The position numbers and the translations under genes are program-made. Of a stretch of DNA of 64,000 nucleotides, positions 5,549-56,800 are shown in pieces. The notes beneath the pieces were generated by a model that saw only the letters and a program-made list of their open reading frames with translations, did no database searches and was not told where the DNA came from. This DNA is from Azolla caroliniana (Eukaryota > Plantae > Polypodiophyta): positions 14,818,001-14,882,000 of the forward strand of contig JBHGNT010000018.1 of assembly GCA_043228905.1 (NCBI GenBank), given 5' to 3'. Position 1 is the stretch's first letter; every line of letters starts with the position of its first letter.

Positions 5549-7259
5549 TGTTGGATCCCTTGAAAGTGACCAAGGAGGTTACAAGTATTTATACAAGTTC
5601 TGAGATGGAATATCTCTAGAATATACACGATAAATACCTCTAGAATATACCTGTTTAGAATACACCATAGAATATTTCTAGAATATACTAAAGTCTAGAA
5701 TATTCTGGAATGTACTATATGCTAGAATATATAGTATTAGGTATTATGTACAAATACATGCTCATATCCAAATGGTTAAGCATGATGTCTTGTTGAAGTG
5801 AGGTTGTAGGTTTAATCTTCACCAACTAAGTGTATGTCAATGTGTCATGACATTATCCTCCCCTTTACGGTTGCCTTTTCGACAATGTGGTGTAGGGGCG
5901 AGCGGCAATTGGAGCACCAACAGATGTGAACAAGCATGTGTGGTTCTCACCAAAGACTGGAATACCGACGGGCGTGAGCGACCATGTGCAGACCTCATCG
6001 GGAACTGGAACACAAACGGGAGTGAGTGGTCATGCAGTCCTTACCGGGAACTAGAACGGGAATTGGAACATGAACGGGCATGACCGACCATGTGCGACCG
6101 TCACGAGGAACTGGAACACGAACCAAAGTGAGCGACCATGTGCAGCACTCGCCGGGAACTTGAACACGAACTAAAGTAAGCGACCATGCGTCCCTAACCA
6201 GGAACAAGAACACCACCAAGTGAAGGAGTGCAAATGAAGAGGTTGACTCAAATTCTTCTATCATGAGAAACCGACGCGATCCCCACCAAGAACGTGAGCG
6301 GTTATGACCCCCACTGGAACTAGAAGGTGAGCGATCAAAATCGATCCTCATCAAAAGAAAGTGGAGCAAAATGTAGAACAATTGAAAATGGAGTGCAAAC
6401 GAGCAATGATTCGATCCCCACCAGGAAAGTGAGCGGGTGTGACCCGCACCGGAACTAGAAAGTGAGCAATCGAAATTGATCCTCGTCAAAAGAAAGTGGA
6501 GTGAAATGAAAATGAAGTGCAAGCGAGAAATGATTCAATCCCACTAGGAAAGTGAGTGGTTGTGACCCCCATCGGAACTATGAAGGTGAGCGATCAAAAT
6601 CAATCCATTTGATGAAGACAAGAAAAGATGTTGAAAGTGATAATGTCGAAGAAGACAAGGAAACGAAGACGATGACAATGAGGAAGTGTCTCTAAAACAA
6701 AGGTTGCTGATGAAGTTAACTTTGGAAGCAAGGTATGTGACGATGGTAACTCTAGAAGCAAGGGCGATGATGAAGACGGGTGATGCTTCTAGTTGGAAGG
6801 GATTCAAACTGTCACAGAGACCCCAACCGCAGACTCGGATGAAGCACGGATGATGGGGCTACAACCATGGAACTTAAGAATCTGAGAAGGACACAAGAGC
6901 ATGAAGACAAAGATGAAGAACGAGACAAGATGGAATGGAACAAGAATACTAGATTGATGTCTCAATTACTAGTGTTGAATCCCTTGAAAGGGACGAAGGA
7001 GGTTACAAGTATTTATACAAGTTCTGAGATGGAATATCTCTAGAATATACACAATAAATACCTCTAGAATATACTTGTTTAGAATACACCATAGAATATT
7101 TCTAGAATATTCTGGAATGTACTATATGCTAGAATATATAGTATGAAATATTATATACAAATACATGCTCATATCCAAATGGTTAAGCATGATGTCTTGT
7201 TGAAGTGAGATTGTAGGTTCAATAACCACCAACTATGTGTATGCCATTGTGTCGTGATA
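5549..7259 (-). mobile_element. Non-autonomous TRIM-like LTR element: 5' LTR 6810-7259, non-coding internal region 5853-6809, 3' LTR 5549-5852 truncated by a deletion
   Basis: Direct repeat 5549-5852 / 6973-7259; minus-strand PPT aaaggggaggataa at 5853-5866; LTR end tgtgaca followed by a self-complementary PBS; no coding domains; second copy at 25348-26238. Confidence 0.8.
5920..6600. repeat. Internal tandem repeats of the TRIM: ~45-bp units (gagcgaccatgtgc...ggaactggaacacgaac) and ~125-135-bp units (ccccaccaggaaagtgagtggttgtgacccc...ggaacta)
   Basis: Repeated motifs at ~5975, 6085, 6130, 6180 and 6281, 6417, 6540; the longer unit recurs at ~25386 and ~25509. Confidence 0.75.
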
Positions 7260-7849
7260 CGACCAACAAAGATTGGTTGGAAGATACAAGGATCAATCCA
7301 GTCGGAAATTGGATGTCAGCCGAAGACCATTGTGAATCGGCCGGACTTGGACAAAGAACTGACCAAAGAAGGATCGGATGCCTGAATTGGACAATAACTC
7401 GAATCAAATTCGGATAAAGAACCGACTGAAGAACTGGTGGCCGAAAACCAAGGAAGAAGATACCCTCTTAGAGAGAGAAGGACTCCCCAGAGATTTTTGG
7501 ATGCAGAGCATGTTTTACTTACCGACAAGGGGGAGCTAGAAAGATTCGAAGAAGCAAAGAAAGACACTCATATCCGCAAGTGGTTAAGTGCCATGCAAGA
7601 CGAGATGGATTCATTGCATGAGAACCACAATATGAATTGACGAAGCCACTGGAAGGAAAGAGAGCACTCTGGAACAAGTGAGTGTACAAGTTGAAACCAG
7701 GAGACGCCGGAAATCCACCGAGGTAGAAAGCCCACATTGTGGTGAAGGGCTTACAACAAAAGAAAGGAGTGGACTTCGACGAGATATTTGCCTCGGTAGA
7801 AAAGATGACATCCATCTGGACGATTTTGAGCGTTGTTACCCATAGGAGT

Positions 7850-10706
7850 TGTACTGGGCGGTATAAGGGTAAAACACATTGAAGGGGTTGTCCGGTATGT
7901 GTAATGTATATGAGTGTGAAGATGAGTATGTGTGAGCACATGCACAATTATGTGCATATGACAAGAGTATAACGGTCTCTTTTGTAAAGGTCATTATTTA
8001 CAGTTACATTTTGTATTATATAAACCCCTTATGGGGCATGTAATGGATAGGCATTTTTCCCTCTCATTTTGGTGTCTTTGTGTATTTGTCTTTCTCTCTA
8101 GCTCTCTCTCTAACTTAACCCCCTTGGGAGGGGGGTGAAGCCATTCTAGGCTTCACCCCCCACCCCAACAACACTTTTGGCACGCTCCAAAGGATGACCC
8201 TCCCTTGAGAAGAAGTCACGTTTCCCTCCCTTGCTCTCCCTCTCCAACTAACGTCTCTCTCTCCCTCTCTATGTGTGTATGTGTCTGTTGAGAAACATAC
8301 AACTCAAGTTTGGACGCCATGGATTTCAAGCAAGTAAGGAAGTGTATGCAGCCATACAAAGCTAAACAGATCGAGGAAGCTGAGAGAAAGCATGTTTAGG
8401 AAGCAAGAAGAAGAGTTGAGCTCCATGGCGGTTCCCTGTTCTAGAGATGCCATGGCAAAATATGTCCATAGTTAGGCCTCCCAACTATGTCTCTACAAGT
8501 TGCTGCAAGGTCCCAAAAAGAAGGGGCTTTAGACCTTTGGTCAGACAAAGATGGACCTGAACGTTTTTTAATCTCAAGCTCTTCAGGGCTATGGCCTCTA
8601 TCATGACTCCCCACTCAATCTCTTTCTTCCCAACTCTTTGCCCCATCCCCCCTTTTACCCTTCTTCATTCATCATTCAGTACTGCACAAAACCCTAATCC
8701 TAAAAGCTAGACACATAGTTAGATCCTTCTCTTACATTTTCCTTTTGTGACAAAACCCCTAATCCACGATCTTCCGTCCCTACTTGATCACCTTGTGGTA
8801 TTGTTGAGCCCTAGCTAGCCTCCCCTTCTTGTTCCATTGCGAAGCTCTAGTCAGTTGCTCTGCAACAGTCATCCCATCAATGTTATTTTTATAGATGTAG
8901 GACACGTTATGCAAGTATGTGTGGTTGCTGTCAAGAAAGGTCAGTCGAAAGTGATGAGTCATGCTTTTGACTGATCCCTAAGTGCAAGGGACTATGATGA
9001 ATTTCTATTTGATGATCCCTAAGTTCAATACAAGTACAAGATTGATGCCCATTCTGATGCAAGAGCATTACACATTCTTACTAAGATTCTTACAAATTAC
9101 CAAGATTTTTACTAATGTCTTCAAGGAGCCTAGCAGGACCAAGAATGCTAGTGAATGTATGGCTCGAGGTTGTGTTGTCTAGTGTGCTATGTCTTGAGTG
9201 AAAAGGATCTACCCTAACTCTAAAGGAGGAGGAACTTCTTTAGAGACTATCCAACAGCCCCTACAGACGGTCGGACGATCGAACGGACGAAGATAATCAA
9301 CAGACGGCGACGGTCGGACAAACGTCCGAAAGCCGGCAGACGGGCAACCGCAGACACAGCCACGGAGAGGGACTGCCAACGACCATGGAGACAACCGAAG
9401 GACAACCGACCCTGAAGGACAGCCGAAAGACTCTAACAGAGGTCCGACGACCGGCGAACGGTGACAGCCGGCCGATGGCAACAGTCGAGAATGACCATGG
9501 GCGAGAGCACGGCCAAGACGCGGCCGAGAGTATGGCTAAGTGATGGCCGGAAAACGAAGGCTAAGAGACGCGACGAAAAGCATAGCTGAGATGCGTGGCC
9601 TAGAATACGCCGAGATGTGTGGCCCAGATTACGGCCGAGATGCGTGGCAGAGACGCGTGGCCCAGAATATGGCCGAGATGCACGACCTAGAATACGGCTG
9701 AGGCGCGTGGCCGAGAGTATGGCCAAGACGCGTTTCCAAGGCGCACGACCAAGATATGGCCAAGAAACCGAGCGTGGCTGAGATGCAACTGAACGGTTGC
9801 CAATAGATGGCCACAGATAGAGTTGGCCAGTAGGTTGGACAATGGACAACAGGGCAATAGAGGCGACGCACAGGTAGATGGAGACGGGCCAAAGACTGCC
9901 AATGGAAGAAGAAGAACCAAGAAGAGGAAAGGAAGAAATGAGAAGATACGTGGAAGACAGAAGGATGCACGGAAAACAGAAGAAGAAAAAGGAAAAGAGG
10001 TGAACAAGATCGAAACGGGGGAGCAAGGGAAAGGAAGGGGAACAAAAGACAGATAGAAGAAGACCGACGCAGAGAAGAAAGAGAAAACATACGCAGAGAA
10101 AATGAAAAAAATTTGAAGAAGAGGGGCAGAAAAAAAAAAAATTTGAAGAAATAGAAGGGCATTCTACACAGTTTCAGAAACGTAAGGGCAGAGAGGAAAT
10201 TTTCAATAATTCGAGGGCATACCATCAAGGGCATAAAATAAAATTCAAAAAATTTGAGGGTAAAAACTTTAGAGACCAAGGGTAAAAATATACAAAGCTC
10301 AATTCACATGACGAAACAGAAAAATACACATACATGTAATAGAATCATGAAAGGGTCATGCCGCAATGAAGGAGCCAATTGGTGTACGGGGCGGTATAAG
10401 GGTAAAACATGTTGAAGGGGTTGTTCGGTATGTGTAATGTATATGAGTGTGAAGATGAGTATGTGTGAGCACATGCACAATTATGTGCATGTGACAAGAG
10501 TGTAACGGTCTCTTTTGTAACGGTCATTATTTGCAGTTACATTTTGTATTATATAAACCCCTTATGGGGCATGTAATGGATAGGCATTTTTCCCTCTCAT
10601 TTTGGTGTATTTGTGTATTTGTCTTTCTCTCTAGCTCTCTCTCTAACTTAACCCCCTTGGGAGGGGGGTGAAGCCATTCTAGGCTTCACTCCCCACCGCA
10701 ACAACA
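7850..10706 (+). mobile_element. Non-autonomous LTR element with 324-bp LTRs (7850-8173, 10383-10706) and ~2.2 kb non-coding interior, inserted in the Copia B RT
   Basis: Highly similar direct repeats TG...CA; PBS-like tggcacgc ~4 nt after the 5' LTR; no retroelement ORFs; no clean TSD. Confidence 0.75.
9490..9830. repeat. Degenerate GC-rich minisatellite (ggccgagatgcgt / ggccaaga units)
   Basis: Many imperfect 11-13-bp units visible; they generate the spurious repetitive minus-strand ORFs here. Confidence 0.7.
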
Positions 10707-11573
10707 AGCAGAGCAGCAAGCATGGTTCTCGAGGTCGAACAATTAGATGTAAAAACTGCATTCTTGCACTGTGACCTCGCGGAGGAGATCTACATGCCGC
10801 AATCGGAGGGATTCATCAAGAAAGGGAAGGAGAACTTGGTGTGCCGGTTGAAGAAGAGCTTATACGGATTTGTAAAAATAGCATGCAAAAGCTTGTAGAC
10901 AAAACCAACTTCACCCACGACATATTGCTCTCACAACGACAGAATGTGTTGAATATGTTGTACAAGTTCAGCATTACGGGTTGCTGACTAGTCTCTACAC
11001 CCCTGGACCGGAACCTGAAGCTTTGTCCCGACTCCGGACCGGCCTGCAACGAGAGACAGTTTTGAAAAATTGTCGAAAGCCTTAATATTTACTTAACGAT
11101 AACCCGACCTGACATCAGCTATCCGGTCAGAGTGATCAGCCAATTTATGCAAAGGAGATCGTTGAGCATGTGTCATGATATGGCAAGACTCGAACCCATG
11201 ACCTTAGGTTGACCATTAGATCATCTATTGTAATACGTAGGATATTATTTTCATTTACATTTTATTATAGGAAATTATTGTATATTCCATATTTCTCTGG
11301 AACATTCTAGAAGCTTCAGGATTACTCCTGAAAACACTATAAAAGAGGGCACTAGGCATTATGTTGAACCAAATTGGTTCAACGCCAGTCTTAAGCCTTT
11401 TAACCACCATTGTATATTCTCTTCATATAATACATATCTTTCTTATCATCACTCTCTCTCTCTCTCGATCTCTCTCTTTCTCTCTGTCTCAATCACTTCT
11501 TCCTTCTCTCGAAGAAGTTCCACACCTCTCATAGTACTAATTCCTTCTCTATCTCAGTACTGTTCATGACAGT

Positions 11574-11585
11574 TTGAACCAATTT
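11574..11585 (+). promoter_or_regulatory. Self-priming PBS (Tf1/sushi type)
   Basis: ttgaaccaattt is the exact reverse complement of aaattggttcaa (11371-11382), which lies ~33 nt downstream of the TATA at 11338; no TGG tRNA-type PBS. Confidence 0.8.
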
Positions 11586-11645
11586 TCCCTACCTTCTGTC
11601 TCTCTCATTTCCTACTAATCTTTTATTCCTCTTTTCTTTCATCCC

Positions 11646-12794
11646 ATGGCCACTGTTAGCGCTGAAGAATATCAATCTATTTTCTCGGAATTTCAATGCT
11701 TGAAGGAGAAGTTCCATGCTTCGGAACAAGAAAACCAACGGTTGCTGGGGGATCTTCAGCAAATCTCCTTAGAAAAGCCGAAAACGCAACAACATGGGGA
11801 ACTTGTGTTACGCGTGCAACAACTCGAAGCAACCATCGTAGCGATGCAACAACAAGGGCCCGGAACACAAGGGATTCATAAAGAACCCAAGATTGGCCTT
11901 CCCACGAAGTTCGATGGAACACGATCGCAGTTTAGAGGGTTCCTTAACCAGGTACGATTAGTTATTCAAATGCATCCTTCCCGATATCCCACCGATGCAT
12001 CACGAGTGGGTTTAGTAGGCACTTTGTTAAGTGGCTCAGCGTTGTCATGGTTCGCTCCACTATTAGAAAAGGAATCTCCGTTACTCAACAATTTTGAAGA
12101 GTTTCTAGGTGAGTTTAAAGCATGTTTCGGAGATACTGACAGCATCAGGACCACAATCAACAAAATCCGGCGATTACGCCAAGGTGACTATCCAGCCTCC
12201 GCATACGCTGCAGATTTTCGCCTACTCGCCGTCAATATCCCTTGGGATGATCAAGCGTTGATGGAGCAATTCCGTTATGGTTTACGCAACGACGTCAAGG
12301 ATTTACTATTGACCTTCCCCGAAGAGCCAAAGTCCTTAACAGAAGCAATTAGTTGCGCGGTGAGATGTGACAACCGCCTCTTTGAGCGACATTCGGAACA
12401 ACAGCTACAGATGCCGAGGGCAAGATCAGAGCCCACCTACGCCTCAGTGGTAGCAAGACCTTTTCCGAAGGAGTCATATAATGCGCCTCCAGCGAATACT
12501 CCGACTCCGATGGAGATTGACACTACACATTGTCGAGGGCCATTATCCGAAGAAGAAAAGCAGCGACGCCGTACAAATCGACTATGTCTTTAGTGCGGTG
12601 GACCAGGACATATCGCAATAAATTGCCCCCATAGGCCAAGAAGACAGGTAAACCAAATAGTCGCTAGTTCTAATTGTACTAAATCCGAGCCTATTTCAGT
12701 AGGGATATCTGATAGTCCTAATAGTACTAATATCCCAGATCTAGCAAACAAATTTGATGTCCTTAGTTAGTTAGAAGAAGAGTTAAACGACTAA
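11646..12794 (+). pseudogene. gag: Chromovirus Gag (PEG10/sushi-like capsid, CCHC knuckle) with premature stops at 12591 and 12768
   Basis: LPTKFDG...FLNQ, YAADFR, PMEID, CL*CGGPGHIAINC. Confidence 0.9.
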
Positions 12795-12833
12795 GTCCAG
12801 CCAAAATAGGAGCCGTTTGGTTGGACAACCCTA
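12782..12833 (+). promoter_or_regulatory. Putative -1 ribosomal frameshift signal between gag and pol
   Basis: G_TTA_AAC in the gag frame, 6-nt spacer, 11-bp stem 12795-12805/12816-12826; protease ORF is in the -1 frame and open from the site. Confidence 0.75.
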
Positions 12834-15800
12834 GATCTGTGCAGCCCATTAGTGGTTCCATTCCCTCTAAGCAAGTTAGTGATGTGTTCGTAGCCCAAGT
12901 AATAGTTAGTACTAAAAGTACCCCTCCAGTACATGTCCTAGCACTCCTAGATTCCGGAGCTAACTCTTGCTTTATGGATAAGAAATTTGCTCAAACTCAT
13001 AAGATATCCCTAAGAAAACTCCAGTGTCCAGCCTCTGTAGTAATCATTGATGGACGTCCCATTGCTTCCGGAAATATCATAGAAGAGTCAGAGCCCATTA
13101 ATATTGTCCTAGATAACTTAGCATGTGTAGTATCATTTAATATTATTAGTATCCCAGAACATCCTATAGTTTTAGGATTACCGTGGTTCGAGTTACATAA
13201 CCCAGACATAGATTGGAGAACAAGAGAAATCCGGTGTCGACAAACCCAAGGGTCAACTCAGAAGATGGCAACCATTTCGCTACGTCAGTTGCGTAAAGAA
13301 GGGTGCAAGGAGGAAATGTTCCTCTTTGCAATATCAGTAAACCCCTCCAGCACCACTAAAGAAGAATCCACCGTTCAACTTCCCGAGAATTATCGTCATT
13401 ACCCGATGTGTTCGATAAAGTACAAGCCAACACACTTCCTCATCATCGACCGTACGATTGCCCCATCGATTTACAACCGGGAAAAGAGCCGCCATGGGGA
13501 CCGATCTACAATTTGTCACCAACCGAGTTGGAAGTCCTTCGGGCCTATATAGAGGAGAATTTGGAAAATGGTTTCATTCGGCATTCGAAATCTCCAGCCG
13601 GCACGCCCATTTTCTTCATAAAAAAAAAAGATGGATCACTTCGTCTCGTTGTAGATTACCGTGGCTTGAATAAGGTTACAATCAGGAATAGGTATGCTCT
13701 TCCCCTTATCTCAAGTCTTTTAGAACGGATCAATGGTGTCAGGTTCTTCACAAAGATCGACTTACGGGGAGCATATAACCTCGTACGGATCCGACCAGGA
13801 GACGAATGGAAGACCGCGTTTCGCACCAGATATGGGCACTTCGAGTATACAGTCATGCCGTTCGGCCTCACTAATGCGCCGATAGTCTTCCAGCACATGG
13901 CTAATGATATATTCTGAGATCTATTGGATGATTGTTTGATCATCTATTTGGATGATCTACTGGTTTATTCAAAGACCCAAGAAGAACATGATTCTCATGT
14001 ACTATTAGTACTAAAACGACTTCGAAAACATGGTCTGTATGCAAAGCTGGAAAAATGTAGTTTCGGGTGCAACCAAGTGGAATTTCTCAGCTAGATCATT
14101 TCGTCAGAAGGCATCTCCATGGACCCAGCTAAGATCAAAACGGTGGTAGAATGGCAGACTCCGCATTCGGTGCGGGATGTGCAATGCTTCTTAGGCTTTG
14201 CCATTTTTTACCGGAAGTTCATACAAGATTACTCAAAGATCGTTCTGCCTCTCACACAACTTACCAGGAAGGGACAACCGTTCATCTGGTCTGAAGAAAT
14301 GGACATGGCTTTCGAGAGTCTTAAAAAGGCATTTACATCGACTCCAATTCTAGCTCATGTCGATCTGGAAAAACCATTCATTATCGAAGCTGACGCATCG
14401 GATTTTGCATTGGGGAGCATTCTGTCACAGCAGGGGAATGATGAGAGGCTACATCCTATGGCTTTTCACTCACGCAAGTTTGACGCCGCTTAAAACAACT
14501 ACGAAATTCATGATAAGGAGCTATTGGCAATAGTGGATTCTTTTATGCAATGGAGGCATTTTCTGGAGGGATCCTCTCATCCAGTCACCGTATTTAGTGA
14601 CCACAAGAATCTTGCCTACTTTCAGGATGCTCGTGTGTTGAATCGACGTCAAGCTCGGTGGGCCCACTTCCTCACGCGTTTCGACTTCAAAATTACATAT
14701 TGTCCGGGGAGGCACCAAGGGAAGGCAGATGCATTATCACGACGTTCGTATCTAGCACCCCATCCTGGCGAGCCAGCTTTCGATAACCAAGAACAAGTCA
14801 TCTTGGGACCGGCACGACTACAAGCAACACAGATTTTTGACATGCCTATGGATTCCCGCGTTATCGATACCATACGTGAAGACTTGAAGACAGATGTGTT
14901 CGCCCAAGCTATACTAGCACAAATTGATCCCTCTCGAGCGTCGTGTTCACAGTCGCAACCACCAGGTACAAACTATCGGCAATTCAAATACCATGATGGA
15001 TTACTCTTCTTTAAAGAACTTTTGTATGTTCCTAATGGTTCTTGCCGCCTTCGAGTAGTACAAAACTGTCATGACACATATATAGTTGGGCATTTTGGTA
15101 GTACTAAAACATTACATTTAGTACAACGAACATTCTGGTGGCCCTGTATGCGACAATTTGTCGAGGATTTTGTTCGGACTTGTGATACATGTTGCAGAGC
15201 AAAAATTCCAAGGCATCATCCATATGGTTTATTAGAACCATTACCAATTCCAAGCAAGCCGTGGCAATCCATTGCTCTAGACTTCATCACAGATCTTCCA
15301 GTCTCTAAGGGGTTCAATGCAATTCTAACGGTGGTCGATCGACCATGGACCCCAGTTCGTGTCAAAATTCTAGAAGCACCTTTTTAACATGCTCAAGGTC
15401 ACTTGTAACCTCTCTTCCGGCTACCACCCACAAACCGACGGCCAAGCTGAACGAACAAATCAAACGTTGGAGCAGTATCTGCGGTGCTTTCTTAGCGATT
15501 ATCAAGATGACTGGGCAAATATTCTCCACTTCGCCGAATTTGCCTATAACAACTCTATCCACACATCCACTAAAGTTACGCCATTTTATGCTTATACGGG
15601 ATGTCACCCCCGGTGGAGTGTACTTGAAACCCCAGAGGTGTCCACAAATCCGTGCGCGGAGGATCGTTTGGGGCAGTTACGCAAGATACAAGCGGATTTA
15701 TCTACTCATCTCGAGCAAGCTCAACAAACACACAAGGTCTACGCGGATCGTCATCAACTTCCATCCAGTTTTATTATTGGAGATCGGGTGTGGCTGCTAC

Positions 15801-16258
15801 GACGACACATCAAGACTACTCGTCCATGTGAGAAGTTAGATTATCGGCGATTAGGTCCTTTCCGTATTATTGGACAGATTAATGATGTCGCTTTTCGTCT
15901 CGATCTACCTCCTCAACTTCAGATACATCCGGTGTTTCATAGTTCTCTCCTCGAACCCTACCACGAGAGCACCATCCCAGGACGTCTTATCCAACCTCCA
16001 CCCCCGATCGAGCTTGAAGATGGGCCGGAGTACGAGGTTGCCACCATCCTTGATTCCAAGATTGTTCACAACAAGCTCTACTATCTAGTCGATTGGCTAG
16101 GCTATAGCCCCAGCGAACGTACTTGGGAACCGATCGAGAATGTGACCAATGCTCGTGCTCTTCTTGAAGACTTCCATCGTCAATATCCACACAAACCAAG
16201 TCCTCAATCCAAGACGACTCGTGACACTCGTCGTTTTAAAGGGGGGATAGTGTCATGA
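12788..16258 (+). pseudogene. pol: Chromovirus Pol: protease, RT, RNase H, integrase (core partly deleted at ~15343) and C-terminal chromodomain
   Basis: LLDSGANS; [21 protein letters not shown] at 13945-13956; EADASD; GHFG...CDTC; GPF; EYEVATILD...YYLVDWLGY...TWEP. Frameshifts and stops present. Confidence 0.92.
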
Positions 16259-16265
16259 TATGGCA

Positions 16266-16320
16266 AGATTCGAACCCATGACCTTAGGTTATATGGGTCA
16301 AGCTCTTGACCATTAGATCA
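16266..16320 (-). promoter_or_regulatory. tRNA-like A-box/B-box module in the LTR U3, antisense to the element
   Basis: Minus strand tgatctaatgg-N33-ggttcgaatct, canonical tRNA spacing, with aaggtc variable-loop-like segment. Confidence 0.6.
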
Positions 16321-17780
16321 TCTATTGTAATACATAAGATATTATTTTCATTTACATTTTATTATAGGAAATTAGTGTATATTCCAGATTTCTCTGGAAC
16401 ATTCTAGAAGCTTCAGGATTACTCCTGAAAACACTATAAAAGAGGGCACTAGGCATTATGTTGAACCAAATTGGTTCAATGCCAGTCTTAAGCCTTTTAG
16501 CCACCATTGTATATTCTCTTCATATAATACATATCTTTCTTATCATCACTCTCTCTCTCTCTCTCGATCTCTCTCTTTCTCTCTGTCTCACTCACTTCTT
16601 CCTTCTCTCGAAGAAGTTCCACACTTCTCATAGTACTAATCCTTCGTTTAGTACTAATTCCTTCTCTGTCTCAGTACTGTTCATGACAGCATGTTCAGTC
16701 CGCGCATCAACTATTCAGGTATGGGAGTGACACTATGGATAGGGGACTTTTATACTAGCACGATATCACTGAAAAGCTAGTTGGATATACTGATGCCGAA
16801 TGGGGAAGTGATGCGTCGAATCATTGGTCAACATACGGATTTATGTTTTCTCTTGATAGCACGACCGTTGCGTGGAGCAGCAAGAAGCAGCCGACATATC
16901 GGGGAGCTACCATTACCACCTGTGAAGCCATCTACCTACGACGGTTGTTGCATTCCTCCAAATCGAAGTATCGACCCCAACCCCGATCTACTGCGATTAT
17001 ATAAGTAGCATGCGCTAGCCAAGAACCCTGTGTTCCATGCTCAAACGAAGCACATAGAAGTGCATTATCACTTTGTGCATGAACGGGTCCTCAACAATGA
17101 AGTCGAACTTCAGTATGTTCAGACAGATCGACAGGTTTCAGACATTTTCCCCAAGGCACTCGACATCAACAAGTTGCAACTTTTTTTGGAGCTGCTTGGG
17201 TTACAACATCTCAACATGCTATGGATCACTTCGATCCCGAGGAAGTAATGAAGGTCCCCCATGGCCCCTTCATTTCGAATGCATCTGACAGCTGGGACTT
17301 CACTTGGTTAATTTCAACGAGTCCGCATATAGTAGGATACATAATGGACCTCTGGACCTTTCCAAATGAACAATGAAGAGTCCGACTTTAAGGCCACAAA
17401 CCCCCTCTTACACAACCGATATATGATTTTCGAATTCCAAGCATGGGGGGCTTGTTTGAAGTTGTAGAGCAACTTCTAACACATTCGCATTCACAAGTGG
17501 AAGGATCGCGCATAAATGGAAGGATAAGGAATATTCTGTTTGATTTTAGTACTTTTTTAGTGATATTACAAAACATATTGATACGAGTATCATACATTCT
17601 CAAATATACTATGAAAAAGGTTGAAAATCCACCATTTTCGTGATTTAAAAATAAATAAATAAAGAGGAATTTCAAAATGTTTAGGGTTTAATTATTTCAC
17701 AAACTTTACAACCAATGTTTTTTATAAGAAGTGATATTCATAGGAATCAAATGAATTCAAAACACATGCTTTTATATTAC

Positions 17781-23598: not shown

Positions 23599-23599
23599 T

Positions 23600-25347: not shown

Positions 25348-26238
25348 TGGCACAAACTGTAGTGCTAGCGAGAAACCCACGCGATCCCCACCAGGAAAGT
25401 GAGTGGTTGTGACCCCCACGGAAATTAGAATGTGAGCAATCGAAATCGAAAGTGAGTGCAAGACTTGAACTATAATGAAAATGCAATGCAAGCCAGCAAT
25501 GATCCGATCCCCACCAGGAAAGTGCGTGGTTGTGACCCCCACCGGAACTAGGAAGGTGCGCAATCGAAAGCACTCCTCACCAAAACAATGATGCAAAATG
25601 ATACCCAAAAATGATGACAAGTAGTGTTGATGAAAACGATGGTTGGGCGAAGAGGTGCTCAAAATGATGACGTCGAAGACAAGGATGTTGATGACGGTAA
25701 CTCCGGAAGCAAGGATAGTGATGATGGTAACGCTAGAAGCGAAGACGACAACGAAGACATGTGATGCTTCCAATTGGAAGGGATTCAAATTGTCACAGAC
25801 ACACCAAGCGTGGACTCAGACGGAGCACAAACGACAAGGCTACAAGGAACTTGAGAAGCTAGGAACGGACATCAAAGAATGAAAACAAAGATGAAGAAGG
25901 AGACAAGATGGAATGAAACGTGAGAATACTAGATTGATGTATCAATGACTAGTGTTGAATCCCTTGAAAGGGACCAATGATGTTACAAGTATTTATACTA
26001 TTTCCGAGATTGAATATCTCTATAATATACTCGAGAATATAACCGTTTAGAATATACCACAAAATAATTCTAGAATATAACGAGTAGAATATTCTCGAAT
26101 GTACTATACACTAGACTCTACAATATATACAAGTTCACACAATCGAATGTGGACAGTTCACAAGAGTTTCCATATGGTTAACACAACACCGTGTATTCTA
26201 TGTGTTAAAAGTCAGAGGTTCGAGTCTAGAATGTGACA
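25348..26238 (-). mobile_element. Second, truncated copy of the TRIM family (5' LTR 25791-26238)
   Basis: Homologous to 6270-7259; PBS aagggattcaa at 25778-25788 complementary to 25955-25965. Confidence 0.8.
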
Positions 26239-28450: not shown

Positions 28451-28496
<46 letters not shown>

Positions 28497-38075: not shown

Positions 38076-38930
38076 AGACGGGCCGGTTTTCTCCGTCCCA
38101 ACTCTCTTGGCGCATACCGGAGGATGCGCGGTTAGGTGGGGGCGGATGTCGTGAAGAAAACCGTCCATAGGCGGAATCGGCGCACCTAGGCGTGGGAACC
38201 GGTTCTTCACGCGCGCAAGCTCCAAGTTGTACATAGAAGCGAATTAGGAGGATAATTGGCAGGAACGGGCCCTAACACGAGTGGAGACAAAGACCGCGCG
38301 AATAGTCTTTTCGGTCGCGCGCGCGAACTGTACGAGTCGGCGGCGTAACTACGCGGATGCGTGAAGAACGGAGCGGATCCCTGTTCAAAAGGGACAGGGA
38401 ATAAAGCTGACACGACGGCCTGCTCGTCGGCCTATATAAGAGCGGGAAAGAGCTGTTGCAGGCATCTCGCGCAGAGAGGACGAAGTGCTGTCGGACCGTT
38501 TCTGGACGCTTCTCTCTCTGTTTCCTTCCTTCTTGAGCTCCATAGCTTTCTGTGCAGGGTTCCGAGGAGGCTCGCGCTGTTTCGAGGAACGCCCGAGTGC
38601 TTCCGGCAGCACCTCCGACCTGCTACCGCCTTTGTGTGTCGAAGCGAACAGGCATCGGCATCTGTTCGCCGGCCTATTCGGTTGTAACCAACCTGTGCCC
38701 CATCGGGGGTTGTAGTCGTGCTAGCCATTTTTCTTAATATACATATTTAGTCATTCGCATCTGTCTGTGTCGGTGTCTGTCCGCGTTCCCCGTGCTGAAG
38801 GGCCGTGACCCTGTGTATCCCCGGTCCTGCGTAGCCGGTTCTCCCTCTTTCTCTTCCCTCGCTTGCTCTTTGGTTCGAGACCCCCGCGGTCCCGCCTCGT
38901 TTCCACACGCACTTGCGTAATATCTAGACA

Positions 38931-44500: not shown

Positions 44501-45927
44501 GGAAGGTGGCGGCAAGGGACGGGACCCAGCATCGACAAAGGTCGGTAAGGCGGGACGGACGAAGTGCGGAGCCCTTACTGGCCCGTTACGGTAGCGGAAG
44601 GAGCCGGTAGGGCAAACCCGGGGAGGTGTGTCGGGCCGAAAAGGCACACCTAGGACGGAACTAGAGGTTCGCAAGTGGCCATCGTGGGCCGGATCGAAGC
44701 GTGACTACTGGACGGTGTTCGGCACGGGCGGTGCCGAATAAAGGAAGTGGAAGACGGCACAAGGGAGGTGCCGGGAACGAGGTGACGGATGCCTAGTGGA
44801 CTGCACAGGGTCGGAGTCAGGGGATGGCGAGAGAGGCCGGAGGAGGATCCTCCACACTCGCTTCGTAGATCTCGGTAGCTTCGTCGAAGTAGTGAAGACT
44901 GACACGGCAAGCCCAGGGTGACAAGTTGGTGGGGGCGAGGGAACGACGGCAAGCGGAAGACTCAGGACCTGTTGCAGAAGCACGAAGACGGGAAGGGCCG
45001 AGCAGGCTACTACGGGTGTTCCTCGGATGCGGAGGACACTGGTATGCGGATGAGCGGTGATGCACGATCTGGCCGGAAAAGGGGCCGAAGAGGCGTGCAA
45101 TAAACCAGAGTACGGCACGGGTAGTGCCAAACAACGGATGAGGGTATGCGGCACACGGAGGTGCCAGAGCGGAAAGGCGAGCGCGAAGATGGGTTCTGCG
45201 GTTCGGAGGTAGTGCGTAAAGGCCAAAAGAAAAAAATGATCCTCCACACCATTCCGAAGACCATGGCGGTTCGAGCCGACGCGGCGACGTAAGACCATGG
45301 AGAAGGAAGGTGGCGGCGAGAGGATGAAGGCAACGCGAAGCAACATGGGACGGCAATCAGGATAACGCGAATGGTCGACGGAGGCCAAGCGGGCCACTAC
45401 AGGCGTTCCTCAAGCAGAGGACATCGGGCATACAACGGAGAACGGTGCGTGCACACGGCCGAACAAGGGCCATCGGAGGTATGCGTACTACGGAGATTGC
45501 GGCAAAGAACCCATCAACGGGAGGTAAGCGCGAAGGAAGAATCGAAGCCGACGGTTCAAACCGGCAGCGAGTCGGGATGCGGATTACAGGAGACTGGTTT
45601 CTCACCGACCGAAATCTCTCACCCTTCAACCAGATTTAGCACGTACCGGTGGACGTGCAGTTAGGTGGGGGCGGATGTCGTGAAGAATTTCGTCCAGAGG
45701 CGGAACCCCAGAAATATTGGCTACATCGGCGGGGTGCACCATGTGCACTCACCCTCGTGTAATTGTGTGAATAATAGGAGTTAAGTCAGGACGAACAATC
45801 CTATGTAAATCGGGATTTATCCCACATTGTAACGCATCCCTCTCCTTAGTCTATAAAAGGAAGGGATGGTCCCTTGTAGAACGGTTGCCCATTTTGTATT
45901 AGTAGGGTATACCGTTAGACGGAGTGA

Positions 45928-45985
<58 letters not shown>

Positions 45986-47593
45986 AGGGCTTCTTCTTCT
46001 TGCTCCCCTCTTTTTCTTCTTCATCCTTCTGTGCATCGAGCCTTGGCATCTAGCGTTCTAGATTTCTGCCCTGTACTCTATGCAAGACCCCGCTCGGCGC
46101 GACAAGCCCGAGAGCTCCCTAACCGACGGCTTGGCAGTAGACAACGATTGTATCTCATGCGGCCTAGGTCCGGCTTGAAGTCGGTGTTGAATCTTGTTGT
46201 CTTGTAAATACATATACATGTGGTTGTGCATATTCGGGTCTCTGTTGGTGCGTGTGTGTGTGTCTTAGTGTTTCTTTATTGCTTATGTACATGTTCGTGC
46301 GAGTGTCAATGTTGCATGCCTGCTCACTCTCTCTCTCTCCCTTCGGTTGCTTCCGGTGTGTTCCTGGGGTGCCCCGAAAGGGGTGAAGCGCGGCTTCCTA
46401 CACTCCGTCACTCCCTAGTCCAAGACCCCCGTGGTCCCGCCTTTCTACACACACGCACGTAACAACGCGACACCGGACAAAGAAGCAAATTGTGGTTGTC
46501 ACAGTAGAAGTATATGACAAAGGTGCTCCAAAGGTTCACCATGGCGGATGCGAAGCCGGTCGGGTCGACACTTCCATAAAACTACAAGTTTTCCGGAAAG
46601 CAAAGTCCAAAAAGAAAGACAGAGAAAGTTAGGATGCTGAAGATACCTTATGCCTCAGTTGTCGGAAGCCGAATGTACGGAATGGTGTGTACCCGGTCGG
46701 ACATCGGATATGTCGTCGAAGTGGTCAGCCGGTCCATGTGCAATCCAGGAAGACGATATTAGAATGTTGTCAAGTGGATCCTCGTGTACTTGAAAGGCAC
46801 CTCGAGCATGTGCCCCTGATTCGGTTAAGATAAACCCACACTGGAAGGTTTTACGTATTCAGAAATGTCGGTTGATGCAAATACCAACCGGTCTACGTCA
46901 TGACTTATGCAGGGGAAACCATATCGTGGTAGTTGAGGCTGTAGAAGTCTGTGGCACTATCAACAACGGAACAGAGTACATGGTGGCTTTAGAAGCCGAC
47001 AAGAAAGTAATATGGATGAAGGACTTCATCGGAGAGTTAGGGATGCAGTAGGAGTAATTTCGGCTCTATTGCGATAGTCAAAGTGTAATCCACCTTGAAA
47101 ATAACACAGCCTACCACTCTAGGACCAAGCACCTCCAAAGGAGATATCACTAGCTCTGGGAGAAGGTCCAAGACAAAGATTTTTCGTTGATAAAGATCCA
47201 CACGGAGGAGAACGGTTTGGATATACTAACCAAGGTGTTGTCGGCTGAGAAGTTGGACGTGTGTCGGAGACTGATCGGGTTGATAAGACATCCCATTCCG
47301 GAGTGAAGGGGGAGTTTGTTGGGAAACTGGTGCCTCCGGATGGGAACGAACGATCCAGATCAGATGAGCCGAATCAGATGGATCAGAAAGGTATCCAAAT
47401 CAGATCCAGTGTGAACCAGAGGTAGGGACATACTAGTAAATATGTTCTGATGCGCTTGTTAAGGCCATACTTGTAAATAACCCAAAAGTTATATGAGTAT
47501 AAATAACTAGGGCAAAACTTATTGACTTATTGACTTAATGACTTGTTATCACTGTACATAGAGAGAGAGAGAGAGAGAGAGATAAAAGAAGCT

Positions 47594-48991
47594 TGTAAAA
47601 GAATATGATTGCGGAAGCTAAGACAAAACTGGCTCGTCCAATAACTAAAGAATACAGACACAGGTAATGGAAACCTTACACGGGAGAGACAAAGTTAGAG
47701 CAGAACACAAAATACGTGTATATTCCAAAACACTAAAAACTTTTTGTACATACACTATGCTCTGTGAGCTCTTTTATACAAGTCCTTAAGAGGATTGACA
47801 AAAGCACTGACAAGTACTTCAATGCTCATACGAGCGACCAACACTGACTCCTAAAAATATGCCTAAGTACTAGGCTAAATTCGTAGGCCTCAAACGGCCT
47901 ACCGGTTATAATCCGATCCGGCTCCTGGTTCCGGATACCATCCGGACACCGATCCGATTCTTCATTCTGGACTCCGATCTGGATCTAGTTGATCTTGTCC
48001 GCTCAACACTCCCCCTCGTGTTGTCGCGGTGTAGGCACTTTGTAAAAGTGCATATGCGGAAGCTAAGACACAACTGGCTCAGCCGGATAACAACAGAATA
48101 CAGAAACGAGCGAGAGACACTTAATTAGAGCAGAACACAACTCAATTCAATACCAATACCCTGTACATACAATGTGCTCTGTAAGCACTTTTATACAAGT
48201 CCTTAAAAAGGACTGACAGAAGTACTCACAAGTACTTCAATGCTGATACGAGCGATTGACACTAACTCCTAAAAATATGCCTACGTACTAGGCTAGATTC
48301 GTAGGCCTCTAACAGCCTGTAAAAGTGCATATGCGGAAGCTAAGACACAACTGGCTCAGCCGGATAGCAACAGAATACAGACACGAGAGAGAGACACTTA
48401 ATTAGAGCAGAACACAACTCAATTCAAAACCAATACCCTTTACATACAATGTGCTCTGTGAGCACTTTTATACAAGTCCTTAAAAAGGACTGACAAAAAT
48501 ACTGACAAGTACTTCAATGCTCATACGAGCGATTGACATTAACTCCTAAAAATATGCCTACGTACTAGGCTAGATTCGTAGGCCTCTAACAACCTGTAAA
48601 AGTGCATATGCGGAAGCTAAGACACAACTAGCTCAGCCGGATAGCAACAGAATACAGACACGAGAGAGAGACACTTAATTAGAGCAGAACACAACTCAAT
48701 TCAAAACCAATACCCTTTACATACAATGTGCTTTGTGAGCATTGTTATACAAGTCCTTAAAAGGACTGACAAGTACTTCAATGCTCATACGAGCGACTGA
48801 CACTAACTCCTAAAAATATGCCTACGTATTAGGCTAGATTCGTAGACCTCTAACAGCCTACCGGTTACAATCCGATCCGGCTCCTGGTTCCGGATACCAT
48901 CCAGGCACTGATCCGGTTCTTCATTTCGGACTCCGATCCGACTTTGGCTTATTCAGCCAATCTAGATCTGGTTGAGCTAGTCCACTCAACA
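47594..48991 (-). repeat. Cluster of Bryco-like LTRs: full LTR 47594-48008, partial tandem units 48041-48317 and 48318-48594, full LTR 48595-48991
   Basis: tgtaaaagtgcatatgcggaagctaagac at 48041, 48318, 48595 (277-bp period); ctccccctc PPT complement after 48008 and 48991. Confidence 0.9.
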
Positions 48992-53870: not shown

Positions 53871-56800
53871 TGTCGTGACGTTTCCATGCCATGATAAGAA
53901 AATAACCTCTACCAATTTATATGAGTTTATTCAAATCTTTGTAAAAGGTTATATAGAGTGCGAGGCCTCGATGAGTAGGAGCATCTAGGGGTTTAGGTGT
54001 CGTGAAGTATTTGCTTCACGATAGAAAAATAAACTAAAATATTGTATTAAATAACATTTGAGAGACTTGAACCCACAACCTCACATACCAAATACAAGGC
54101 ACATACCATTAGGCTTGGTCATTTGTTCTTTTAAAGTTATATTTTAATGCATACCTTGTACCCTCACATGCATCATATGCATGGGGGCACCTATTTAATG
54201 AGGGAAAGGGAAAAGAGTGGGGATAACATGAGACGAGGAATATTATTGTTGTAGGAGGGACAAGCTATATTATTGTACAAGAAACATTTTGTAATCATCT
54301 TCAAATATCAATACAAGTTATTTTTGTTTCTCCTCTTTCTTTGACACAAAGCTCGGTGCTTACTTCCCGGATTTGTGATTTTCTTTCCGTTTGCTCTCGT
54401 ATGCCTAGATCGATGCGACAACGTGGAAACCCTAAAGTGGGAGAACACCACAGAGAATGGAGCTTCACTATACATGCACGCAACAGGTATGCATGTTTCT
54501 TAGTATAAATATTTGAGTTCACTTTGAATGAATTCAAGGTGAACAACACGAGTTAATGATATTTGCCCTTAGCTTGTCAATCGTGTCTTTGTAGCACTTT
54601 AAGGCTTGTCGATCGAATCCTTGTCGTATCCTTGTAGCTCTGATTCTTCTATCCTTAACAGTTTGTTCACCTTCTTCACTCTCTCCCCCTCTTCGCTAAC
54701 CACACATCAAAAGCCATGTCTGATACGTCTGATAGCCTACCCCAAATAAGCGCAGCTTTGGAACAACTCCAAGCCAAGAACGCTACCCTTCGTCAATCTT
54801 TACTTGAGCTTCAGTCTGCCACATCCTCGGTTACCCCAGCCACCACACTCAACCCACTACCACCATCCCAAGAACCCTACTATGAACCCAAGGTTAGCCT
54901 TCCTGATAAGTTCGATGGAACGCATGCACGACTACACGACTTCCTTAATCAAATCCACCTCATCATCTGCCTACAGCCCCGTCGTTACACCACAGGGTTC
55001 CACTAGGTCGGTCTCTTGGGGTCGTTGCTAAAGGAACCAACGGAGGCCCCGTCGTCCCTTGGTGGAACGGAGTTTGAACCTACTTTCAGGGAGACGAACC
55101 AACACTGAGTTGTGCTCACTAAGATCTATACCGACGTGAACTAGGGAAGTTAAGAGCGATGGAGAACCAAGAAGCAGTCTTAGAGCCACGGATCAACCAA
55201 GAAGCCGTTCTAGAGCCACAAATCAATGTGGTGTTATAAATGATTGAAAGAATGATGCAAAACCAAGAACGTGCAACTGCTCTTCAACGAATCGCTCATG
55301 CTATGGACAAGCTTGTAGAGAAAATAGGTCTCTTTGAAGGTAAAAATATATCTAAATTCTTACAAGTATATGTTACTGAGCTGGGTAGTAAAAGGGTTCA
55401 ACCAACATGATGTTCAAATAAATTTTGTGAGGATGGTTGAACTCCCTTTGAGAAATAGAGTCTCGAAACTCGCAACAAGTTCTAATGATTGGGTTGCATT
55501 TGAGCAAGCTTTATTAAATGAGTACATGCTTCGTGATACAATCAGAGCGTCAAGGAGGAGTTTCCTGGATTGGGTGGACGAGGACAAGAAGATTTCGGTG
55601 ATGGAGTTGTTAAAAGTATTTCAAGCTCGGTATAACCAATTAACAATGACTGAAAGGACTGTTTTGGAACCGGAGAAGGTCATATTATTCTTGAAGGCAT
55701 CAGACCGATCATATCGAGAAAAATTAGTTGCATTCCTTGAAGACTGGACTACACCCATTGGTCTAGTGTCCCATTGGAATCTAATACATAAAGCTTGTAA
55801 CAGAATCAGCAAAAGAGCCCAATGGTGTGAAGATCTTTCGATTGTCGGGGGTATGAAATATGAAATGAAGACAACCATCAAGGATGATACTGGAGTTCGT
55901 CAACTATTTTGAGGGTACCCGTAACAGTGATGGACGATCTTATCAAAGGTATAAAAGATCTTTCATTACATGTTGCAAAGCTACAAGAAGAAAAATACCT
56001 CACAACCCCAAAAAGATTATGAAAGAAAATGCATATGGTGTGATAACGTCGACCATTCAAGAGGAGGGTGTGATAACTATCAAGAAGCGATAGAAAGAGG
56101 GGTGATATTCTTCAAAGAGGGTAAGATTCATTTTTCTGAAACTCGATTACCTCTCCGAACTAACTTTAGAAGAGGTGGTATGAGAACGATCATCGAAGAT
56201 GCAAAAATAACTAGGACACAAGTTGTCTATCAACCAACAACTACAGTCATCCATGTTGGTGAAGGAGGATCTGAATCTGAATTTTGGCCGTATATTTTGA
56301 AAGTTGCAAGAAAGGGTAAAATCGAGTTTGAAAAGTTGAAGTGTGGAGGTGATGCTGGCCGAAGCAAAACTAGTTAGGAAGACCCGGTGGATGGCCTCTC
56401 AGCTTTCGTGAAGGTTGCAACAACCCAAGCCCATGAAGTGATCATGGAAGAGAAATGGAAATGGGCGGAAAATGAAGATAACAAAAAGAGGGAGCTAAGA
56501 AGCGCTAAAAAGAGGGAGACAAAAAGTCCAAAAATGGTAAGCCCTGACATTGAAAAAGATAAGGATAAGAAGAGTCCCTCGTTCAAATTATTATCTGATA
56601 TTGAAGCTTCAACTGATTTTAAAAAAGTATTGGAAGAAAGAATTTTAGATAGCAAAGTGGAACTTTCCTTGAGGGAACTTTTGGGCATAGCTAAAAAGGA
56701 ATTTCATGAAGCTATAATAGATGGAATTAAAAGAAAACGGCAAAGCATTGAAGCAACTAAAAACCAAGGAAATAAAGTGAAGAAATCAATGGTGGAGGTC

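What the first reader, a model, noticed from the sequence alone, without database searches (positions are those of the whole stretch)
5765..54116. Antisense tRNA-like Pol III promoter module at the outer U3 end of LTRs in three self-priming families
Seen: A-box/B-box pairs near the LTR start, always antisense to the element. Chromovirus 16320-16266 reads tgatctaatgg-N33-ggttcgaatct, with a cccata..acc..aaggtc middle reminiscent of tRNA-Met; its 5' LTR copy has a 17-nt deletion. TRIM copies at 5765 and 7172-7226 read tatccaaatgg-N33-ggtt(t/c)aat. TRIM 26167-26227 has B-box ggttcgagtct. Fragment 54116-54063 reads aagcctaatgg-N32-ggttcaagtct. The rest of these LTRs is not alignable between families, yet boxes and spacing are kept while cloverleaf stems are not. 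Known: T8-to-G52 spacing in tRNA genes is about 44 nt, B-boxes bind TFIIIC, and Cassandra TRIMs carry 5S promoters in LTRs. Inference: a retained TFIIIC site or outward-facing Pol III unit that insulates the LTR promoter from heterochromatin or makes antisense RNA, in elements that need no tRNA primer.
Basis: partly seen in the sequence, partly recalled or inferred. Interest (0 to 1): 0.85.

Follow-up and report, generated by a model that had tools for sequence, protein, structure and literature searches.

The report
Backward tRNA promoter in moss retrotransposons
One lineage of jumping genes, likely from mosses, keeps a back-to-front tRNA-gene promoter at the outer edge of its terminal repeats while the DNA around it has diverged, so it likely recruits the RNA polymerase III factor TFIIIC, probably to keep the element's own promoter open, although binding and function are untested.

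Summary
Confirmed and wider than reported. In 77 related metagenome loci, 41 of 44 clade members with LTR sequence carry the module; none of 15 outgroup LTRs does. Across 20 LTR lineages (about 50% identical; fourfold-degenerate sites 41%), the B-box core is 89% identical, A-B spacing stays 32-33 nt, and the AGGTY block 5' of the B box, a known TFIIIC contact zone, is kept; the anticodon arm and flanks are at background (32-40%) and no cloverleaf is kept. The inner U3 carries either heat-shock-like or RY/ABRE-like arrays, so the Pol II enhancer changed while the module stayed. Best reading: a complete outward-facing type-2 Pol III promoter under selection as DNA, likely a TFIIIC/TFIIIB barrier for the LTR's Pol II promoter. 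No binding or RNA data. Not Helenus (sense, non-autonomous). Self-priming relatives lack it, so the two traits are not coupled. The scan noted tRNA-like LTR boxes before in probable fungal genomes.

The parts
11171..11571 (+). 5' LTR of a full-length chromovirus (TSD GCATG at 11166-11170 and 16689-16693); TATA 11338-11345, R start 11371-11382
   Evidence: LTR pair 391 of 401 aligned bases identical
11187..11223 (-). A/B module of the 5' LTR, broken by a 17-nt deletion between the boxes (gap 16)
11572..11585 (+). self-priming PBS, 12-nt complement of R start 11371-11382
11619..16258 (+). gag and pol (PR, RT, RH, IN, SH3, chromodomain), interrupted by stops and frameshifts; the last codons run through the PPT into the LTR
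16238..16250 (+). polypurine tract
16251..16688 (+). 3' LTR of the chromovirus
16267..16320 (-). intact module: A box 16320-16310, AGGTC block 16284-16280, B box 16276-16267, gap 33
16397..16414 (+). four-unit GAAnnTTC array (heat-shock-element-like; label recalled) inside U3, between module and TATA
   Evidence: sequence; counts
5549..5852 (-). 3' LTR (lacking U5) of non-autonomous element NA1; PPT at 5853-5866 nearly identical to the chromovirus junction
5765..5818 (+). module in NA1 3' LTR, antisense to the element, gap 33, 3 mismatches
6811..7259 (-). 5' LTR of NA1 (449 bp); PBS 6810-6798 complementary to R at 6985-6975
7172..7225 (+). module in NA1 5' LTR, gap 33, 3 mismatches
25792..26238 (-). 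5' LTR of non-autonomous element NA2 (same family as NA1, 78% over 343 nt), self-priming PBS from 25791; no 3' LTR found
26167..26226 (+). module in NA2: perfect B box 26217-26226, decayed A box, gap 39
53998..54660 (+). 5' LTR of a distant self-priming Ty3/Gypsy fragment (5' end less certain); TATA 54504, R 54536-54546, PBS from 54661, CATGCA repeats in inner U3
54064..54116 (-). module: A box 54116-54106, B box 54073-54064, gap 32
54716..55005 (+). gag fragment fixing the orientation of the 54-kb element; 49-61% identical over about 50 residues to clade and non-clade gags alike

Best explanation
The outer U3 of these self-priming chromovirus LTRs holds a tRNA-derived A box and B box pointing out of the element and kept while flanking DNA diverged, which likely bind TFIIIC, would load TFIIIB on the AT-rich DNA on their inner side, and probably act as a portable chromatin barrier for the element's own Pol II promoter. 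Shown: the anatomy (LTR end, 11-63 variable nt, B box, 32-33 nt, A box, AT-rich stretch, stress-type motif array, TATA, self-priming R), antisense orientation, selective conservation with the degeneracy of a type-2 promoter, loss of the cloverleaf, and restriction to one branch of the integrase tree plus one distant element in the window. Inferred: origin from a tRNA or SINE head inserted backwards into an ancestral LTR and copied to both LTRs; TFIIIC occupancy (about 0.8); TFIIIB loading, because the A box is kept at tRNA spacing although in yeast the B box alone holds TFIIIC and the A box positions TFIIIB (about 0.65); benefit as a nucleosome-poor barrier between flanking heterochromatin and the enhancer-TATA of the 5' LTR, the outward direction keeping Pol III off the element's own Pol II start (about 0.5). 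It cannot be the promoter of the genomic RNA, which is on the other strand and has its own TATA.
For: 41 of 44 clade loci carry the module, 0 of 15 outgroup LTR starts. In 20 lineages, mean pairwise identity: B core 0.89, A core 0.82, positions 44-51 0.73, versus anticodon arm 0.39, upstream 0.40, 62-72 0.36, fourfold-degenerate codon sites 0.41 with saturation 0.30. 19 of 20 have at most 3 mismatches; 0 of 20 on the sense strand and 0 in 30 shuffles. Free spacing 24-60 returns 32 or 33 in 19 of 20, while the distance to the LTR end runs 16-63; an unanchored MAFFT alignment gives the same nearly gap-free block. Variation follows the boxes: position 59 takes all four bases, 57 only G/A, C56 fixed in 20 of 20, G46 T47 fixed in 20 of 20. 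Yeast TFIIIC makes a base-specific contact upstream of the B box, changes at 44-47 alter binding or transcription, and 32 bp is the commonest A/B distance (PMC11724288, passages). Common within-family variants in four DNA runs fall at 59, 10 (towards G), 11 (T/C), 12 and in the spacer (40 of 111 rows shown). DNA upstream of the A box is 82% AT against 59% in the module. Inner U3 holds HSE-like arrays in 7 and RY plus ABRE-like arrays in 5 of 20 lineages, never both. Arabidopsis has the B-block-binding TFIIIC subunit (PMC10533338, passages).
Against: No occupancy, transcript or chromatin data exist here. G10 of the A box is kept in only 4 of 20 lineages and C61 in 14 of 20. [quoted passage not shown] Related self-priming elements with HSE-rich LTRs do without it (L039, L042, L045, L048), as does the L052-L077 group, so it is not needed for this life cycle. 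Individual copies lose it: the window's own 5' LTR, L018, L035, L072. TFIIIC tolerates gaps up to 93 bp in yeast, so the fixed 32-33 nt is not fully explained by binding alone; T35 is kept in 18 of 20 without explanation. The 20 lineages are related and partly collapsed assemblies, not independent trials.
Confidence: 0.5

Rival explanations
1. The promoter is real but its product matters: Pol III makes a short outward RNA which, from the 3' LTR, is antisense to the PPT and the end of the integrase gene and tunes copy number, seeds small RNAs or acts as a decoy.
For: Complete A+B promoter; a run of four or more T lies within 45 nt downstream of the B box in 11 of 20 lineages against 6.1 expected (p = 0.01); four T end Pol III transcription in Arabidopsis.
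Against: No terminator at a fixed place; none found in 5 of 20 lineages within the LTR end plus up to 60 nt, including the window's family. The RNA would have no conserved sequence outside the boxes and no consensus fold on either strand. From the 5' LTR it would read unrelated flank.
Confidence: 0.17
2. The module is an integration device: TFIIIB/TFIIIC on the LTR makes a landing pad for this or other retroelements (Ty3-like), or tethers the cDNA ends to Pol III sites.
For: L057 has what looks like another LTR end inserted 40 nt upstream of T8, and L030 and L015 break 25-50 nt upstream of it. Two of 77 loci hold three tRNA genes near truncated elements. An unreviewed scan note reports this in a probable fungal genome.
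Against: Only 1 clear insertion among 44 clade LTRs; the window's chromovirus sits inside another repeat, with no tRNA gene in the window. Apparent tandem copies in L002, L009, L010 may be collapsed assemblies. Being a target for others would not by itself explain selection on the carrier.
Confidence: 0.12
3. The sequence works in the genomic RNA: the sense strand of U3 is complementary to the variable loop, T arm and D loop of a host tRNA and anneals it, as the 3' half of the bipartite Ty3 PBS does, for dimerisation, packaging or strand transfer.
For: Orientation is exactly what annealing needs; Ty3 has such a 3' site (PMC11381356, passages). 13 of 20 lineages could pair 14-23 nt in a row with the majority sequence; the loss of C56 is avoided and G57A (a wobble) allowed. 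The block 44-61 is 72% identical to a tRNA-Thr found in L021.
Against: 37 of 60 substitutions in 44-61 would break pairing with one tRNA, and 7 of 20 lineages pair 9 nt or fewer. G46, T47, G53, T54 never take the wobble change that annealing would allow. A-box conservation is single bases (T8, A14, G18, G19) with free positions between. These elements self-prime, and in vivo data do not support a PBS role in Ty3 dimerisation or packaging.
Confidence: 0.12
4. It is a neutral relic of an old SINE or tRNA insertion, or a set of Pol II factor sites that happen to resemble the boxes.
For: Faint pairing remains in the tRNA register (51% of cells against 47% shuffled, 2 of 500), as a relic would show; SINE-like heads occur free in flanks (L009, L010, L053).
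Against: Boxes at 0.82-0.89 identity beside synonymous sites at 0.41 and spacer at 0.39; spacing fixed in an indel-rich region. Two blocks with the degeneracy and spacing of a type-2 promoter are unlikely for unrelated Pol II sites.
Confidence: 0.07

Closest known systems
Helenus (TRIMp3; Kojima 2024, PMC10886601; parts 1-4 and 6 of 6 read, supplement searched)
   Same: tRNA-derived sequence in both LTRs; boxes A and B conserved, tRNA function lost; one plant case in Selaginella; proposed origin by SINE insertion into an LTR.
   Different: Helenus is non-autonomous, short and tRNA-primed, with the boxes in sense (the Selaginella consensus is sense; sense B-box words outnumber antisense 206 to 13 in the supplement) as the presumed promoter of the element. 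Here the boxes are antisense at the outer U3, in autonomous self-priming chromoviruses that keep a TATA-driven Pol II promoter. The paper expects autonomous partners to use Pol II and not to share such LTR sequence; it also says that 'not a few' Repbase LTRs have tRNA-like parts, which it did not describe.
Cassandra and Ajax TRIMs (as described in PMC10886601)
   Same: Pol III promoter carried in LTRs.
   Different: 5S-type (type 1) promoter, sense, drives the element's RNA in Cassandra; non-autonomous.
Tcn1 chromoviruses of mosses and club-mosses (Neumann 2019, PMC6317226; Novikova 2010, PMC2864245; passages and two supplement rows)
   Same: 5-bp TSD, 5.5 kb, self-priming, chromodomain; the carrier elements fit this clade.
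   Different: The searched passages mention no Pol III boxes or tRNA-like LTR part ('polymerase III' 0 times in PMC2864245).
Foamy virus U3 Pol III miRNA cassettes (PMC7693620, PMC3993851; search listing and abstract starts only)
   Same: Pol III units in the LTR of an autonomous retroelement.
   Different: There the product is a structured pri-miRNA; here no structure or sequence of the RNA is kept.
tDNA and TFIIIC-site chromatin barriers (review PMC11346459, passages; details from own knowledge)
   Same: A/B boxes acting as DNA elements that keep chromatin open or bound it.
   Different: Known cases are host loci or SINEs; here it would be built into an LTR and move with it. Function not shown here.
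Ty3 bipartite PBS (PMC11381356, passages); HIV-1 U3 tRNA-Lys3-like tract (recalled, not read)
   Same: Sequence near the 3' end of genomic RNA complementary to tRNA.
   Different: Those pair with the element's own primer tRNA; these elements self-prime and the variation pattern fits promoter boxes better.

Membership tests
Helenus / TRIMp3 | tRNA-derived sequence with boxes A and B in both LTRs | tested here: met
Helenus / TRIMp3 | Non-autonomous TRIM, screened at under 1 kb (range 311-1263 bp) | tested here: not met
   5.5-kb gag-pol element; NA1 at least 1.7 kb
Helenus / TRIMp3 | Boxes in sense, able to drive the element's RNA | tested here: not met
   antisense in all window sites and 41 of 41 loci; 0 of 20 on sense strand
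Helenus / TRIMp3 | PBS complementary to a cellular tRNA | tested here: not met
   PBS complementary to the element's own R region
Tcn1 chromovirus | Gypsy domain order with C-terminal chromodomain, aromatic residues kept | tested here: met
   Pfam hits; Y101, W122, Y125 invariant or nearly so in A1; cage assignment recalled
Tcn1 chromovirus | Self-priming PBS | tested here: met
   11-12-nt matches in the window; 12-14-nt matches 32-34 nt past TATA in 10 of 44 clade loci
Tcn1 chromovirus | 5-bp TSD, length 5466-9444 bp | tested here: met
   GCATG, 5518 bp
Tcn1 chromovirus | Placement with REXdb Tcn1 references in an RT-RH-INT tree | not testable with these tools
   no reference set on hand; tree holds only fetched loci
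Type-2 Pol III promoter | B box with invariant G53 T54 T55 C56 A58 | tested here: met
   20, 20, 19, 20, 19 of 20 lineages
Type-2 Pol III promoter | A box T8 G10 A14 G18 G19 | tested here: inconclusive
   17, 4, 19, 18, 20 of 20: G10 mostly lost
Type-2 Pol III promoter | A-B distance in the tRNA range | tested here: met
   32-33 nt in 19 of 20 with free spacing
Type-2 Pol III promoter | T-run terminator downstream | tested here: inconclusive
   11 of 20 within 45 nt, position variable
Type-2 Pol III promoter | TFIIIC/TFIIIB/Pol III occupancy and a transcript | not testable with these tools
   only contig-level runs available
tRNA gene | Cloverleaf with paired acceptor, D, anticodon and T stems | tested here: not met
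   38%, 59%, 45%, 69% of cells paired; no consensus fold; ARAGORN and Rfam negative

The most novel reading that the evidence does not exclude
An autonomous, heterochromatin-reading chromovirus lineage has domesticated a tRNA promoter as a built-in, outward-facing TFIIIC/TFIIIB boundary that travels with every LTR, shields an interchangeable stress enhancer (heat-shock type in some branches, RY/ABRE type in others), and scatters very many candidate TFIIIC sites through moss genomes, giving the first handle on TFIIIC barrier function in plants.
Probability: 0.35. Interest if true: 0.82.

Novelty: new variant of a known kind. Interest (0 to 1): 0.64.

Why it matters
Pol III promoters in LTRs are known from small non-autonomous elements, where they are thought to drive the element's RNA. 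Here the promoter faces away, sits in autonomous elements with their own Pol II promoter, and has outlasted near-saturation of synonymous sites and a swap of the enhancer beside it, so it must do something else. If TFIIIC binds, it shows a retrotransposon carrying its own chromatin boundary and offers a natural, high-copy test system (with box-less sister lineages and deleted copies as controls) for whether TFIIIC sites act as barriers in plants. It also warns that moss LTRs hold many tRNA-like boxes that tRNA finders miss.

Tried and rejected
No genome is held for the window, so copy-wide tests used metagenome loci. ARAGORN and Rfam on the window and on 16245-16345 found no tRNA; at -ps80 ARAGORN gave 235 calls, 8 over a module, with inconsistent isotypes, so noise. 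IMG/VR scan: no relative. Expression: no RNA holder listed; two guessed RNA runs and two probable or possible DNA runs are contigs only and cannot give strand, start or level, so nothing is concluded. Donor tRNA: compared with three tRNA genes found in L013 and L021, similarity is confined to the boxes (spacer 21-35%), so no donor can be named; tRNA-Met rejected. Conserved RNA structure: RNAalifold gives no pair on either strand; single-sequence z below -2 in 3 of 20; the window's family forms its own hairpin (z -4.7), which is lineage-specific. Coupling to self-priming rejected. L049 was labelled 'absent' in the tree by a bad automatic pick and re-scored as module-bearing. Independent origin in 'three families' rejected for the chromovirus, NA1 and NA2 (shared PPT junction and priming design); left open for the 54-kb element, whose gag is as far from the clade as from outgroups. 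Scan look-ups by sequence and place returned nothing.
Full report
Setting. The window is a nest of plant LTR retrotransposons. The host is inferred to be a moss: it holds a self-priming chromovirus with 5-bp TSD of the Tcn1 type, which in plants is reported only from mosses and club-mosses (PMC6317226, passages and supplement row), and a Gypsy element at 31641-38930 with a 4-bp ACGT TSD and a PBS resembling the tRNA-Trp PBS of Rfam's RSV_PBS model, which fits the moss Phygy lineage. No genome is held.

Observation. The two strong sites (16320, 54116) are the only hits with at most one mismatch to recalled A/B consensus in 128 kb of both strands, against none in 12 shuffles. The non-autonomous sites are weaker: they fail that scan and an nhmmer search but rank next in a PSSM built from 20 outside lineages, above the null maximum. 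The chromovirus spans 11171-16688, LTRs 97.5% identical, with a 17-nt deletion between the boxes in the 5' LTR. Its PBS matches the R start 33 nt past the TATA box over 12 nt. So all are self-priming and all modules are antisense, with the B box 12-65 nt from the LTR end.

Relatives. An alignment of the SH3-chromodomain end fetched 77 loci from metagenome contigs: the best 80 of 547 confirmed stretches, from a scan that stopped after 50 of 64 parts. An LTR start was found automatically in 65 of 77. In the integrase tree (76 rows incl. the window) a starred branch (99/95) separates 26 outgroup rows from the rest. Of the 44 non-outgroup loci with at least 100 nt of LTR (L069 among them although too short for the tree), 41 carry the module antisense; L018, L035 and L072 have it deleted or broken. 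None of 15 outgroup LTR starts has a pair with fewer than 5 mismatches, and four more outgroup LTRs read by eye (L039, L042, L045, L048) go straight into GAAnnTTC arrays; L042 shows a self-priming PBS. The module is thus a trait of one branch, not of self-priming. The 54-kb element's gag is equally far from both groups, so it is either a deeper branch or a second capture.

Selection. Clustering the first 200 LTR bases at 80% gave 23 clusters; three holding only broken copies were dropped, and the first member of each other cluster was taken without regard to box quality (20 lineages, mean LTR identity 0.50). Over 190 pairs, fourfold-degenerate sites of the adjacent coding region are 0.41 identical (saturation 0.30). 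In tRNA numbering, mean pairwise identity is 0.89 for the B core, 0.82 for the A core, 0.73 for 44-51, but 0.39 for 27-43, 0.32 for 1-7, 0.36 for 62-72 and 0.40 upstream. G19, G46, T47, G53, T54 and C56 are invariant; 57 is G or A; 59 takes all four bases; G10 survives in only 4 and C61 in 14. Because the boxes were located by a consensus, controls were run: 19 of 20 lineages have at most 3 mismatches, against 0 of 20 on the sense strand and 0 in 30 shuffles; with spacing free from 24 to 60, 19 of 20 return 32 or 33; and an unanchored alignment gives the same block, with long indels on both sides. Leave-one-out PSSM scores are 22.9-44.2 bits. At the CpG of the B box the tolerated change (A57) is seen in 15 of 42 rows and the damaging one (T56) in 3. 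Within the window's family, the commonest variants in four DNA runs fall at degenerate box positions and in the spacer (71 of 111 rows not shown). These loci are related to each other and some are collapsed assemblies, so the counts are descriptive.

DNA or RNA. The cloverleaf is not kept: 38%, 59%, 45% and 69% of cells pair in the four stems, 51% overall against 47% shuffled (2 of 500), a faint trace of tRNA ancestry; no consensus fold appears on either strand. The retained positions match what TFIIIC reads: besides the B box, yeast TFIIIC contacts a base upstream of it, changes at 44-47 alter binding or transcription, the B box alone holds TFIIIC while the A box positions TFIIIB, and 32 bp is the commonest spacing (PMC11724288, passages). 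Keeping the A box at that spacing, with an 82% AT stretch behind it, argues for a TFIIIB-loading promoter rather than a B-box-only site. The annealing rival (sense RNA pairing with a tRNA, as in Ty3) fits the orientation, and 13 of 20 lineages could pair 14 nt or more, but 37 of 60 substitutions would break pairing and wobble-neutral changes are absent at G46, T47, G53, T54. A T4 run follows within 45 nt in 11 of 20 (expected 6.1), at no fixed place.

What it is for. Inside the module, U3 carries GAAnnTTC arrays in 7 lineages and CATGCA plus GCCA(A/C)RTGGC-type arrays in 5, never both, with 8 lineages too short, broken or lacking either (the labels heat-shock element, RY and ABRE are recalled and no shuffle control was run). 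The enhancer has been exchanged while the module stayed. My preferred reading is a barrier: TFIIIC at the LTR edge and TFIIIB on the inner AT-rich stretch keep the enhancer-TATA of the 5' LTR accessible in silent chromatin, with Pol III aimed away from the Pol II start. tRNA genes lie in nucleosome-poor regions and have insulator activity (PMC11346459, passages); the same review notes that methylation impairs TFIIIC binding, which cuts against occupancy of old copies. Nothing here tests this step. Rivals are a functional outward RNA, a landing pad (one clear insertion 40 nt upstream of the A box in L057), and tRNA annealing.

Known systems and novelty. Helenus is closest but fails three defining features (autonomy, orientation, priming). 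Six literature searches aimed at this case listed no paper on Pol III boxes in moss or Tcn1 LTRs; I saw listings and abstract starts only, the library lacks most subscription papers, Repbase entries were not seen, and Kojima notes other, undescribed tRNA-like LTRs. Unchecked scan notes report tRNA-like LTR boxes in probable fungal genomes, one as a landing pad and one as a decaying passenger; here decay is excluded. Verdict: real, under selection, a new variant of Pol III-promoter-bearing LTRs; function inferred; interest 0.64.

Noticed in passing
L039 after 5271, L042 after 934, L045 after 2981, L048 after 4009: A sister group of self-priming elements without the module has a conserved extra sense ORF of roughly 120-145 codons between pol and the PPT, and LTRs that open directly into GAAnnTTC arrays. 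The Tcn1 row of PMC6317226 lists no extra ORFs.
   Followed up: no
window 16397-16414, 5620-5730, 7040-7135, 26000-26100; many clade loci: Heat-shock-element-like arrays in some LTR branches and RY plus ABRE-like arrays in others suggest heat- versus ABA/desiccation-inducible subfamilies (labels recalled).
   Followed up: partly
window 16238-16259: The integrase reading frame runs through the PPT and stops inside the LTR start (KGGIVS-stop), and relatives keep this overlap.
   Followed up: partly
L057 1960 onward: What looks like the U5 end of another LTR element is inserted 40 nt upstream of the A box; L030 and L015 LTRs also break 25-50 nt upstream of it.
   Followed up: partly
window 16262-16311: In this family the module is an imperfect inverted repeat (folding z -4.7 for the L001 copy), which may explain the 17-nt deletion in the 5' LTR.
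   Followed up: partly
L009 3005 (-), L010 2705 (-), L053 2665 (+); L013 128-201; L021 552-627 and 831-906: Free SINE-like tRNA heads (the L009 and L010 copies share a body) and three tRNA genes in flanks; possible donor class for the module.
   Followed up: partly
window 47590-48990: A copia-type LTR on the minus strand with three 277-bp head-to-tail repeats of its U3-R-U5 part; related LTR at 27545-27930.
   Followed up: no
window 28199-46472: Three-level nest: a Phygy-type element holds a copia with identical LTRs (29756-30043, 42212-42494), which holds a second Phygy-type element with 99.6% identical LTRs and long ORFs: very recent activity.
   Followed up: no
window 7850-8176 and 10383-10706: 2.9-kb element with 324-bp LTRs, a strong hairpin at the U5 end and no tRNA-type PBS; possibly another self-priming non-autonomous element, without A/B boxes.
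   Followed up: no
window 17781-19906 (-): Two ORFs, one with DUF7869 (E 2e-35), probably a degraded DNA transposon or host gene.
   Followed up: no
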